Shown here: positions 6,001 to 9,000 of the stretch, piece after piece
How the letters are laid out: the number at the start of each line of letters is the position of its first letter
Position numbering within the stretch: the stretch's first letter is position 1
Assembly: GCF_050320075.1 (NCBI RefSeq)
Contig: NZ_CP190018.1
Direction: 5' to 3' (one strand)
Length of the DNA stretch: 64,000 nucleotides
From: Escherichia coli
Lineage (GTDB): Bacteria > Pseudomonadota > Gammaproteobacteria > Enterobacterales > Enterobacteriaceae
Position numbers: made by a program

Positions 6001-9000
6001 CGATCGCCTTGCGTTTGAGGATCTCTTCTACGGACCATACTTCGCCGTTCGGGATATGGTGCAGCGCGGTAACCACGCCAGTTGCGCCCGCCTGACGGAC
6101 ATCAGCTAAAGAAACCGGATCGTTTGGGCCGTACCAGCGCCAGGTCTGTTCCATGATTTTTCCTCTTTCACATAGTGGGTTCCACAGCAAAGAGACGTGG
6201 AGCCCCGGAGTTGTTTAGGTATCCGGATGAACAACCAGACCGCAGCCGTGGCGTTGCATCGGATGAGATGGCGTATAAGTTCTACCTTTTGGTAAGACAT
6301 GTCAACCCGAAATCTGAAATTGGTTAACCACATCACAAGAATTTCACTCTCCTGGTTGTTGCTGCAAATTGCAGCAAAGGGTAATCGATGGTTATTGATC
6401 AGAGGATGTGACATTCATCGCAACAATGGTTGACCAATTTACATAACATGTCGCCCAAAATAACAACGGTTCAACCAGGTAAGGTAAAACGTTATGCATG
6501 TGCTTAACATTCTCTGGGTGGTATTCGGCATTGGTCTGATGCTGGTACTGAATTTGAAGTTCAAAATCAATTCAATGGTGGCTTTGTTGGTGGCGGCGCT
6601 GTCCGTCGGGATGCTGGCGGGCATGGATTTGATGTCGCTGCTGCACACCATGAAAGCGGGCTTCGGCAACACGCTGGGGGAACTGGCTATCATCGTGGTG
6701 TTCGGTGCGGTCATCGGTAAATTGATGGTCGACTCCGGCGCGGCTCACCAGATAGCACATACGCTGCTGGCGCGTCTCGGTCTGCGCTATGTACAGCTGT
6801 CGGTGATTATCATCGGCCTGATTTTCGGTCTGGCGATGTTTTATGAAGTGGCCTTTATCATGTTAGCGCCGCTGGTTATTGTTATTGCCGCCGAAGCTAA
6901 AATTCCGTTCCTGAAACTGGCGATCCCGGCAGTAGCAGCTGCCACTACCGCACATTCACTGTTCCCACCGCAGCCGGGTCCGGTGGCGCTGGTGAATGCT
7001 TATGGCGCGGATATGGGGATGGTTTATATCTATGGCGTACTGGTGACGATCCCAAGTGTAATCTGCGCAGGTCTGATCCTGCCGAAGTTCCTCGGCAATC
7101 TTGAGCGCCCAACGCCATCATTCCTGAAAGCAGATCAACCGGTAGATATGAATAATCTGCCCTCTTTCGGCGTTTCGATTCTGGTGCCGCTGATCCCGGC
7201 GATCATTATGATCTCCACCACCATCGCCAATATCTGGCTGGTAAAAGATACCCCTGCCTGGGAAGTGGTTAACTTTATCGGTTCCTCGCCGATTGCAATG
7301 TTTATTGCGATGGTGGTTGCATTCGTACTCTTTGGCACCGCGCGTGGTCATGACATGCAGTGGGTGATGAACGCTTTTGAAAGCGCGGTGAAGAGTATTG
7401 CAATGGTGATTCTGATCATCGGTGCGGGTGGCGTGCTGAAGCAGACCATCATCGACACCGGCATTGGCGACACCATCGGCATGTTGATGTCCCACGGTAA
7501 TATCTCGCCCTACATCATGGCATGGCTGATCACCGTACTGATTCGTCTGGCGACGGGACAGGGTGTGGTTTCAGCGATGACCGCCGCCGGGATTATCAGT
7601 GCTGCAATCCTTGATCCAGCAACTGGTCAGCTGGTTGGCGTGAATCCGGCGCTACTGGTACTGGCGACGGCTGCGGGTTCCAACACCCTCACCCACATTA
7701 ATGATGCCTCATTCTGGCTGTTCAAAGGTTACTTTGACCTGTCAGTAAAAGACACGTTGAAAACCTGGGGTCTGCTGGAGCTGGTCAACTCCGTGGTTGG
7801 GCTGATTATGGTGTTGATTATTAGCATGGTAGCGTAAAAGAACACCGGAGCCTGCCAATGGCAGGCTCTGACTGATGACAAAGTCTAAAAATGTGCCCGG
7901 CCAGTCCCCTCGCCCCTCCGGGGAGAGGGTTAGGGTGAGGGGAACAGACCAGCAAAGTGCGCTTTGTTTATGCCAGATGCGACGCTGACGCGTCTTATCT
8001 GGCCTACAAAGGGCTAACGTGCAGGTTTTAGCTTCAGGTAATATTGCGTACCAGCATTAGCAATGTCCTGTGATTTCTTTATTGATAAACAAAAGTCACG
8101 CCAATAATCGATTGCACATTCCCTGCAGTCACCTGCCCTCCGGTACGTGCGTAATTTGCCGTTAATCCCAGACTTACCGCCGAAGTCCCTACTGCTCCTA
8201 ACGATACCGTGTTATTCGCTGGAATAATCGTACCGTTGCGCGTCAACTGTACGCCGACGCCCTGCGCGGGTGAAAACGACGCGGTATTGGTGAAAATCGA
8301 GTTGCCCGCATCTGCGGTTGTGCCGGAGAGGTAATACCCCAGGTTTTGGCTTTTCGCACAATAAACGGTAAGAGGAATCGGCACTGAACCAGGGTAGTCC
8401 GGCAGAGTAACGGTGACATCACGAGCAGAAACATCGCAGCCGCCAGTGGGCACCACCACATCATTATTGGCGTAAATATTCCACACAAACTGGAAATCAT
8501 CGCTGTTATAGTTGTTGGTCTGTCGCAAAATAAGCACGGCAATTAATGAGCCTGCTTTAATCGCCACTCCCCCCGCACTGCTCACAGGCGTCAAATAAAG
8601 CGCCACCGGCCACGGCTTATCCGTTCTCGAATTATAAACAACCCGCGGCGTTTCGCTGGTAGTAGGGAAAGGATAGCTACTGCCATTATATTTTACGGTC
8701 CCGGAAAAACTAGATAACACGCCGCCATAAGCCGAACCTCGTTGCAGTGTGACATAGTCTGTAATGGTTTCCGGGTAATCGTTATGGCAAAAGATTTGCG
8801 TCGAAAGATCCACGACCAGGTTTTGCCCCACATTCACGGCAGGCGCAAGGTTTACATAAACATTGGCGCTGCCACCGCCAATAGGGATAGCGGTACCATT
8901 GGCGGTTTTACAGGCGAATGACCAGGCATTTACCGACCAGCCCATCAGCAGTACAGCAAACAGGGTAATAACTCGTTTCATTACAATCATCTCTTCGGGT

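What the first reader, a model, noticed from the sequence alone, without database searches (positions are those of the whole stretch)
6316..6440. Two palindromic operator candidates in the uxuA-gntP divergent control region
A perfect palindrome TGGTTAACCA (6321-6330) and an imperfect one AATGGTTGACCAATTT (6425-6440) lie between the divergent uxuA and gntP genes and resemble the hexuronate repressor (UxuR/ExuR) recognition sequence. They would place both promoters under the regulator encoded 3 kb away.
Basis: partly seen in the sequence, partly recalled or inferred. Interest (0 to 1): 0.3.

Follow-up and report, generated by a model that had tools for sequence, protein, structure and literature searches.

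The report
Known UxuR operators between uxuA and gntP
The two small palindromes are real and are almost certainly the binding sites of the sugar-acid repressor UxuR in the shared control region of the E. coli uxuAB and gntP genes. This regulatory arrangement is already described for E. coli K-12, so the finding is correct but ordinary.

Summary
The window is E. coli.

Palindromy alone means little: the window holds 62 perfect 10-bp palindromes. The match to the UxuR box, AAATTGGT-NN-ACCAATTT, is what carries weight. A matrix built from 30 sites in other genera scores the two sites at 21.2 and 19.2 bits, and the box upstream of uxuR at 20.7. The next best hit in 64 kb is 10.0 bits, and shuffles give 0.005 such hits.

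Both boxes are conserved from Escherichia to Citrobacter (93% and 83% identity), while the DNA between them is randomised (30%). They persist in all 5404 E. coli genomes that carry the region.

Published genomic SELEX puts UxuR's only strong peak in this spacer. CRP ChIP-seq puts CRP on TGTGACATTCATCGCA, directly next to site 2.

Inferred mechanism: site 2 lies at about -24.5 in a class II CRP-dependent gntP promoter and blocks RNA polymerase. Site 1 lies at about -55.5, just upstream of a conserved uxuA promoter, and overlaps a conserved TGTGA.

The boxes are UxuR-type, not ExuR-type. Novelty: already known. One open point is the conserved 102-106 bp spacing of box pairs.

The parts
6317..6334 (.). 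UxuR box 1 (uxuA-side operator, 'site A'): AAATTGGTTAACCACATC, with perfect core TGGTTAACCA at 6321-6330 and centre at 6325.5. Inferred position about -55.5 relative to the uxuA start of transcription.
   Evidence: 13/16 match to the half-site consensus. Scores 21.2 bits with the independent UxuR matrix, the top hit in the window. AAATTGGTTAACCA is invariant in Escherichia and Citrobacter. The TGGTTAACCA core (TGGTTGACCA in Shimwellia) sits at a fixed 15-16 nt from the -35-like hexamer in 11 loci. The 18-mer was intact in all 10 E. coli variants examined.
6423..6440 (.). UxuR box 2 (gntP-side operator): ACAATGGTTGACCAATTT, with core TGGTTGACCA at 6427-6436 and centre at 6431.5. Inferred position about -24.5 relative to the gntP start of transcription.
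   Evidence: 14/16 match; 19.2 bits. 83% identical between Escherichia and Citrobacter, against 30% for the inter-site DNA. The 34-mer around it is exact in 5145 of 5404 E. coli genomes.
6407..6422 (+). CRP site TGTGACATTCATCGCA, centre 6414.5. Inferred position -41.5, i.e. class II, for gntP. It directly abuts box 2.
   Evidence: 9/10 core match. It is the reverse complement of the MEME site under the in-vivo CRP ChIP-seq peak 'gntP/uxuA' in ETEC H10407 (PMC4287617). 90% conserved to Citrobacter.
6322..6337 (-). CRP-like 16-mer TGTGATGTGGTTAACC, centre 6329.5, about -59.5 for uxuA. It overlaps box 1. The TGTGA explains why the distal flank of box 1 departs from the UxuR consensus.
   Evidence: 8/10 core match. 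TGTGAT immediately upstream of the TGGTTAACCA core is conserved in 9 of the 11 loci (TGTGGT in E. albertii, absent in Shimwellia). Multiple CRP sites in the gntP-uxuAB spacer are reported by SELEX (PMC3105977). CRP occupancy of this particular site is not shown.
6277..6305 (-). Inferred uxuA promoter: -35 TTGACA (6305-6300), a 17-nt spacer, -10 GAACTT (6282-6277), start of transcription near 6270.
   Evidence: Best sigma-70 arrangement in the spacer. TTGACA-N17-GAAYTT is conserved in Escherichia, Citrobacter, Enterobacter sp. R1, Cedecea and Enterobacter sp. Ag1, with close variants in Shimwellia and Erwinia, although the spacer sequence differs. No mapped start site could be retrieved.
6444..6449 (+). 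Inferred gntP -10 hexamer TAACAT, with start of transcription near 6456.
   Evidence: Invariant in Escherichia and Citrobacter. It lies at the distance from the CRP site expected for a class II promoter. Inference only.
3370..3387 (.). Third UxuR box, upstream of uxuR (autoregulation): AAACTGGTCAACCAAATA on the plus strand.
   Evidence: 20.7 bits. Identical in K-12. SELEX reported two UxuR-binding sites within the operon (PMC5934670).
2441..3214 (-). uxuR, the repressor gene.
   Evidence: 254/257 residues identical to K-12 UxuR. NCBIfam NF007588 'Uxu operon transcriptional regulator' scores 582.9 bits against a cut-off of 442.
4970..6154 (-). uxuA (mannonate dehydratase), first gene of uxuAB. 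uxuB is 3429-4889 on the minus strand.
   Evidence: TIGR00695 scores 793 bits; annotation.
6494..7837 (+). gntP (fructuronate transporter).
   Evidence: NF007459 scores 908.6 bits; K-12 annotation 'fructuronate transporter'.

Best explanation
The two palindromes are the operators of the FadR-type GntR-family repressor UxuR in the divergent uxuAB/gntP control region of E. coli.

Without hexuronate, a UxuR dimer (or a UxuR-ExuR heterodimer) sits on each 18-bp box. Box 2 lies between the CRP site and the -10 of a class II CRP-dependent gntP promoter, at about -24.5, so it excludes RNA polymerase. Box 1 lies immediately upstream of the uxuA -35, at about -55.5, and overlaps a conserved CRP-like TGTGA half-site at about -59.5. 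There it most likely blocks CRP and the alpha-CTD of polymerase, so that the weak -10 promoter is not activated. A third box upstream of uxuR gives autoregulation. Fructuronate or glucuronate releases UxuR and, with cAMP-CRP, both promoters fire.

Shown here: the motif match, its rarity, its conservation and its geometry. Taken from the literature: UxuR binding in this spacer, CRP binding, and induction. Inferred: the promoter positions and the mode of repression at each site.
For: Motif:
- Both sites match the published UxuR box with the UxuR-type 2-nt spacing.
- There are only 3 hits in 64 kb, all in the uxu locus.
- An independent matrix gives 21.2, 20.7 and 19.2 bits against 10.0 for the next best, and 0.005 expected per shuffle.
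- Similar boxes lie upstream of K-12 uidR and uidA and of uxuA in many other genera.

Conservation:
- The sites are identical in K-12.
- Escherichia-versus-Citrobacter identity is 0.93 and 0.83 in the boxes, against 0.30 between them.
- None of the 49 variable columns falls in the box cores among 8 E. coli plus E. albertii.
- All 5404 E. coli genomes with the region keep both boxes, and the sampled differences lie outside the 18-mers.

Binding and regulation from the literature:
- UxuR's single SELEX peak is in the gntP/uxuA spacer and is weakened by glucuronate (PMC5934670).
- uxuAB and gntP are derepressed in a uxuR deletion (PMC10016265).
- There is a CRP ChIP-seq site next to box 2 (PMC4287617).

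Geometry: the module TGTGAT-TGGTTAACCAATT-N15-TTGACA-N17-GAAYTT is conserved across genera. The regulator gene is confirmed.
Against: The primary papers with the curated operator and start-site positions (Blanco 1986, Klemm 1996, Rodionov 2000, Bates Utz 2004, Suvorova 2011, Tutukina 2016) are not in the held library, so exact agreement with curated coordinates could not be checked.

The strict promoter scan found no sigma-70 promoter in the spacer. The promoter positions rest on a relaxed scan plus conservation.

The independent matrix was assembled from sites picked with the same consensus, so it is independent of the tested sites but not of the consensus.

Each box has one degenerate half: 3 and 2 mismatches in the flanks.
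Confidence: 0.9

Rival explanations
1. The boxes are primarily ExuR operators, with the paralogous galacturonate repressor encoded elsewhere being the main protein bound here.
For: [quoted passage not shown] UxuR and ExuR are said to bind each other's sequences and to form heterodimers.
Against: An ExuR matrix from 42 RegPrecise-derived sites scores box 1 at 8.5 bits and box 2 at 2.2 bits. Its training sites have a median of 17.7 and a minimum of 8.2. The ExuR motif has GT-N3-AC spacing and these boxes have N2. The E. coli ExuR site list in that data set does not include uxuA or gntP. Purified UxuR alone selects this spacer.
Confidence: 0.07
2. Site 1 is really a CRP site (TGTGA-N6-TAACC) and its resemblance to a UxuR box is secondary. 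On this reading only site 2 is a UxuR operator.
For: 8/10 CRP core match centred at 6329.5. The TGTGA is conserved in most of the genera examined. SELEX reports several CRP sites in the spacer.
Against: The perfectly conserved part is TGGTTAACCAATT, which is the UxuR box and not the CRP right arm. CRP would prefer TCACA, which is never present. Site 1 is the top UxuR-matrix hit in the window. ChIP-seq with MEME picked the other CRP site. Overlapping dual use is more likely than exclusive use.
Confidence: 0.05
3. The palindromes are chance features of an A+T-rich spacer with no protein bound.
For: 10-bp perfect palindromes occur at the random rate in this window: 62 against 62.5 expected.
Against: Motif-specific statistics, cross-genus conservation next to randomised DNA, and published UxuR binding in the spacer.
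Confidence: 0.01

Closest known systems
UxuR operators of the E. coli K-12 hexuronate regulon (uxuAB, gntP, uxuR, uidR/uidA), as described by comparative genomics and by UxuR gSELEX
   Same: Same organism and the same locus. The sequence of both boxes is identical to K-12. Same 18-bp AAATTGGT-NN-ACCAATTT motif. Same regulator next door.
   Different: Nothing substantive. The strain differs from K-12 at six spacer positions outside the boxes.
ExuR operators (uxaCA, exuT, exuR, uxaB)
   Same: Paralogous FadR-type repressor, A/T-rich palindrome with TNGT/ACNA arms, same pathway.
   Different: ExuR boxes have GT-N3-AC spacing and a 19-bp register. The two boxes here score at or below the weakest ExuR training site.
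Two-operator, loop-forming repressors such as GalR (OE -60.5 / OI +53.5) and the FadR-type LldR (O1/O2 of lldPRD). This comparison is from my own knowledge, not tested here.
   Same: Two dimer-sized operators roughly 10-11 helical turns apart, one upstream of the -35 and overlapping a CRP site. In other genera the second UxuR box lies about +48 downstream of the start, much like gal.
   Different: No evidence that UxuR tetramerises or loops DNA. In E. coli the second box lies upstream in the divergent promoter rather than downstream.
Divergent CRP-dependent sugar-acid and sugar promoters with repressor boxes abutting the CRP site (for example the nagE-nagB and malE-malK type spacers listed in PMC3105977)
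   Same: A shared spacer, CRP plus a local repressor, and several CRP sites.
   Different: A different repressor family and different geometry.

Membership tests
UxuR operator (FadR-subfamily GntR binding site) | Palindromic TGGT-N2-ACCA core with 2-nt GT..AC spacing | tested here: met
   TGGTTAACCA 6321-6330 and TGGTTGACCA 6427-6436. UxuR spacing of 2 nt according to PMC4494728.
UxuR operator (FadR-subfamily GntR binding site) | A/T-rich flanks AAAT.../...ATTT giving the 18-bp box AAATTGGTNNACCAATTT | tested here: met
   13/16 and 14/16 matches. Each box has one perfect and one degenerate flank. Matrix scores of 21.2 and 19.2 bits fall within the training range of 16.9-28.1.
UxuR operator (FadR-subfamily GntR binding site) | Located in promoter regions of hexuronate genes and near the uxuR gene | tested here: met
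   uxuA/gntP spacer with uxuR 3.1 kb away. Positions of about -55.5 and -24.5 relative to the inferred start sites.
UxuR operator (FadR-subfamily GntR binding site) | Conservation in orthologous regulatory regions (phylogenetic footprint) | tested here: met
   boxes 83-93% identical between Escherichia and Citrobacter, against 30% for the inter-site DNA. Box 1 is conserved in more than 6 genera.
UxuR operator (FadR-subfamily GntR binding site) | Direct binding by UxuR, released by fructuronate or glucuronate | not testable with these tools
   The literature gives spacer-level resolution only: a gSELEX peak in the gntP/uxuA spacer that is lowered by glucuronate (PMC5934670). The base-level footprint could not be retrieved.
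UxuR operator (FadR-subfamily GntR binding site) | Operator mutations derepress the adjacent promoters | not testable with these tools
   Needs reporter fusions.
ExuR operator | GT-N3-AC spacing and the 19-bp AAAGTTGTATGACAACTTT-like motif | tested here: not met
   ExuR matrix: 8.5 bits (box 1 in the N3 register), 2.2 bits (box 2) and 6.5 bits for 6286-6304. Training median 17.7, minimum 8.2.
CRP site | TGTGA-N6-TCACA with in-vivo occupancy | tested here: met
   6407-6422 has a 9/10 core match and equals the ChIP-seq/MEME site in ETEC.
CRP site | The same feature, for the second candidate that overlaps box 1 (6322-6337) | tested here: inconclusive
   8/10 core match with a weak right arm. The TGTGA is conserved in 9 of 11 loci. 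There are no occupancy data for this site.

The most novel reading that the evidence does not exclude
UxuR box pairs may be held about 10 helical turns apart for cooperative, loop-forming repression, and box 1 may be dual-coded with a class I CRP site so that UxuR acts there as an anti-activator.

The spacing is 102-106 bp in Escherichia, Citrobacter, Enterobacter sp. R1, Cedecea and Erwinia. It holds even though the DNA between the boxes is randomised, and even though the partner box lies upstream of site A in some genera (in the gntP promoter) and downstream in others (near the uxuA ATG).

If this is right, one UxuR assembly would shut both divergent promoters together.
Probability: 0.25. 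Interest if true: 0.35.

Novelty: already known. Interest (0 to 1): 0.1.

Why it matters
It confirms that a sequence-only reader can pick out true operators in a divergent promoter region. Biologically it restates textbook-level regulation of glucuronate and fructuronate catabolism in E. coli, a pathway relevant to gut colonisation.

The only part that might add something is the conserved operator geometry. The operator sits a fixed 15 nt from the -35, the TGTGA overlaps it, and box pairs are spaced about 104 bp apart. This suggests a testable anti-activation and looping mechanism for a FadR-type repressor, and it is useful for designing UxuR-based biosensors.

Tried and rejected
- Exact 18-mer including the central AT (AAATTGGTATACCAATTT, up to 3 mismatches): no hit, because the two central bases are not conserved. 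I repeated the search with NN at the centre.
- Strict sigma-70 scan: no promoter found. I replaced it with a relaxed scan plus cross-genus conservation.
- Primary papers (Bates Utz 2004, Suvorova 2011, Tutukina 2016, Bouvier 2019, Thomason 2015): not held. Supplement searches for start sites or RegulonDB-style site lists gave nothing for UxuR, uxuA or gntP. The PMC4494728 supplement is cut before the UxuR entries.
- De novo enumeration of 4+4 palindromes upstream of uxuA in 74 loci: TGGT-N2-ACCA was enriched (10 loci against 1 in coding sequence) but ranked below generic A/T palindromes, because the loci are regulated by different factors.
- ExuR-type box overlapping the uxuA -35 (CTTTTGGTAAGACATGTCA, 6286-6304): considered because the block is conserved, but it scores only 6.5 bits and the conservation is explained by the promoter itself.
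- ExuR-matrix top hit at 61439-61457 (16.8 bits): it lies inside a coding region of a prophage-like island and is at chance level for 128 kb searched.
- RNA element: no Rfam match in 6100-6560.
- The 19-bp palindrome at 6359-6377 as CytR, Cra or PurR-like: half-sites are loosely similar, but from memory the spacing is wrong for all three. It is left unexplained.

Full report
**What is there.** The window is Escherichia coli. The 461 bp around the finding are 100% identical to strain 266917_2 and are present in 5404 of 5426 complete E. coli genomes, annotated uxuA and gntP. The gene order is uxuR 2441-3214(-), uxuB 3429-4889(-), uxuA 4970-6154(-), gntP 6494-7837(+), then fimH onwards. NCBIfam equivalog models confirm UxuR, UxuA and GntP. 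The UxuR protein is 254/257 identical to that of K-12.

TGGTTAACCA is at 6321-6330 and AATGGTTGACCAATTT at 6425-6440, as stated. The 339-bp spacer (6155-6493) has the same length as in K-12 MG1655. It differs at six positions, none of them inside either site. Whatever is established for K-12 therefore applies here. The K-12 coordinate equals 4548999 + (8791 - window position).

**Is it more than chance?** Palindromy alone is not. The window has 62 perfect 10-bp palindromes against 62.5 expected, and about 0.34 would be expected in the spacer. The specific motif is another matter.
- A published UxuR site is AAATTGGTATACCAATTT (PMC8092373).
- UxuR-group sites have 2 nt between GT and AC, whereas ExuR sites have 3 (PMC4494728).
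- AAATTGGTNNACCAATTT with up to 3 mismatches finds exactly three places in 64 kb, against 0.55 expected: 6317-6334, 6423-6440 and 3370-3387. The last lies upstream of uxuR.
- I built a weight matrix from 30 sites taken from other genera plus K-12 uidR. None of them came from the Escherichia or Citrobacter uxuA/gntP spacers.
- That matrix gives 21.2, 19.2 and 20.7 bits for the three sites. The next best score in the window is 10.0. In 200 dinucleotide-preserving shuffles of the window, the mean number of hits at or above 19.2 bits was 0.005.
- The same simple scan recovers boxes upstream of K-12 uidR and uidA, and ExuR-type boxes at exuR, uxaB and uxaC/exuT.

**Conservation.** A UxuA-based scan of one genome per species returned 80 loci. 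The divergent gntP-uxuA arrangement is found in E. albertii and four Citrobacter genomes. Aligning these spacers gives a clean footprint, quantified:

| Block | Escherichia-versus-Citrobacter identity |
|---|---|
| Box 1 | 0.93 |
| CRP site | 0.90 |
| Box 2 | 0.83 |
| uxuA promoter block | 0.84 |
| 69 bp between box 1 and the CRP site | 0.30 |

The inter-site segment is essentially random, yet its length is kept at 67-69 bp.

Among eight diverse E. coli plus E. albertii, 49 of 339 columns vary, and none falls in 6317-6330 or 6423-6439. Across the whole collection, all 5404 genomes that have the region retain both 34-mers with at most two mismatches. The site-2 34-mer is exact in 5145 of them. 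The site-1 34-mer differs mostly at 6312 and 6316. In the most divergent records examined, the changes (6312, 6316 and a 1-nt deletion at 6339) lie outside the 18-mer.

**Experimental anchors from the literature.**
- Genomic SELEX with purified UxuR gave a single specific peak, in the gntP/uxuA spacer. Binding decreased with added glucuronate, and a second site within the operon was noted (PMC5934670).
- uxuAB and gntP are induced by glucuronate and derepressed in a uxuR deletion (PMC10016265).
- CRP ChIP-seq in ETEC H10407 has a peak labelled gntP/uxuA with the MEME site TGCGATGAATGTCACA (PMC4287617). This is the reverse complement of window 6407-6422 and directly abuts box 2.
- CRP SELEX reports several CRP sites in this spacer (PMC3105977).
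- UxuR acts as a homodimer or as a heterodimer with ExuR (PMC12842492).

**How it most likely works (inference from geometry).**

For gntP, the CRP site is centred at 6414.5. The hexamer TAACAT at 6444-6449 is invariant between Escherichia and Citrobacter. Together they fit a class II CRP-dependent promoter starting near 6456. Box 2, centred at 6431.5, then sits at about -24.5, between CRP and the -10. This is a classical occlusion position.

For uxuA, anchoring 11 loci from more than six genera on the box shows a fixed module: TGTGAT-n-TGGTTAACCAATT, then 15 nt (16 in Erwinia), then TTGACA, then 17 nt, then GAAYTT. The sequences in between are unrelated. This identifies the uxuA promoter in the window as -35 at 6305-6300, -10 at 6282-6277, and a start near 6270.

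Box 1 is therefore centred at about -55.5, just upstream of the -35. Its distal flank is overlapped by a conserved TGTGA, which forms a CRP-like 16-mer with an 8/10 core match centred at about -59.5. This overlap explains why the distal half of box 1 departs from the UxuR consensus in a similar way in most of these genera. With a perfect -35 and a poor -10, the promoter should need activation. UxuR at box 1 would deny CRP and alpha-CTD access. None of this positional model could be checked against mapped start sites, because the relevant papers are not held.

**UxuR or ExuR?** A matrix from 42 ExuR sites (supplement of PMC4494728) scores box 1 at 8.5 bits and box 2 at 2.2 bits. The median for its own sites is 17.7 and the minimum is 8.2. 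That data set's E. coli ExuR list does not include uxuA or gntP. The boxes are therefore UxuR-type. The genetically known contribution of ExuR may come from weak cross-binding or from heterodimers.

**An unexpected regularity.** Pairs of UxuR boxes near uxuA are spaced 102-106 bp centre to centre in Escherichia (106), Citrobacter (104-105), Enterobacter sp. R1 (105), Cedecea and Enterobacter sp. Ag1 (102), and Erwinia (103-104). In Escherichia and Citrobacter the partner of the ancestral box lies upstream, in the gntP promoter. In the other genera it lies downstream, close to the uxuA ATG, at about +47 to +49. A distance of about 10 helical turns, kept on either side while the intervening DNA is randomised, suggests cooperative binding by looping. 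Known precedents, from my own knowledge, are GalR and the FadR-type LldR. This is a hypothesis. The constraint could instead come from packing two promoters and CRP into the spacer.

**Comparison and verdict.** This is the UxuR operator pair of the E. coli uxuAB/gntP control region, part of a regulon characterised since the 1980s and re-described by comparative genomics and SELEX. Novelty is "already known" and interest is low. I could not view the curated coordinates directly, and that look-up is the cheapest decisive check.

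Noticed in passing
window 6359-6377: A perfect 9+1+9 palindrome, TTGCTGCAA-a-TTGCAGCAA, lies midway between the two UxuR boxes and is unique in the window. It is kept in E. coli with rare single changes, has one mismatch in E. albertii, and is absent in Citrobacter. No factor could be assigned. The half-sites loosely recall CytR, Cra or PurR, but from memory the spacing is wrong for all three.
   Followed up: partly
loci L013, L014, L016, L042, L048 and window 6317-6440: UxuR box pairs are spaced 102-106 bp apart in five or more genera, with the partner box upstream of the ancestral box in some and downstream in others. This suggests a helical-phase constraint.
   Followed up: partly
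window 3390-3407: A weak second UxuR-like box (AGTTTGATTGACCAGTAA, 9.5 bits) lies 20 bp from the strong box upstream of uxuR, giving a possible tandem operator for autoregulation.
   Followed up: no
window about 3236-3268 (uxuB-uxuR spacer): From memory, a REP-like element (…gatcggataaggcgttcacgccgcatccgg…) sits between the uxuR operator and the uxuR start codon. It shows several differences from K-12.
   Followed up: no
window about 6177-6255: The uxuA 5' leader carries a segment of about 79 bp that is present in Escherichia but absent in Citrobacter. It lengthens the inferred leader from about 37 nt to about 116 nt. No Rfam match.
   Followed up: partly
window 6469-6478: GGTTCAACCA in the inferred gntP leader is largely conserved between Escherichia and Citrobacter (CAACCA invariant), and a 12-13-bit UxuR-like match appears there in two Citrobacter genomes. 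It could be a weak extra box or part of the leader or ribosome-binding region.
   Followed up: no
locus L006 (E. coli SCPM-O-B-8794), 1-3000: In this E. coli genome no gntP is detected upstream of uxuA. The ORFs upstream look, from memory, like nanM/nanS, which would imply loss of the fim-gntP segment. A variant of box 2 (GAATTGGTCAACCATTAT) is retained 106 bp from box 1.
   Followed up: partly
window 61439-61457: The best ExuR-matrix hit in the window (CAAGTGATGTGACAAATTT, 16.8 bits) lies inside a 274-aa ORF in what looks like a prophage-like island. It is judged a chance match.
   Followed up: yes
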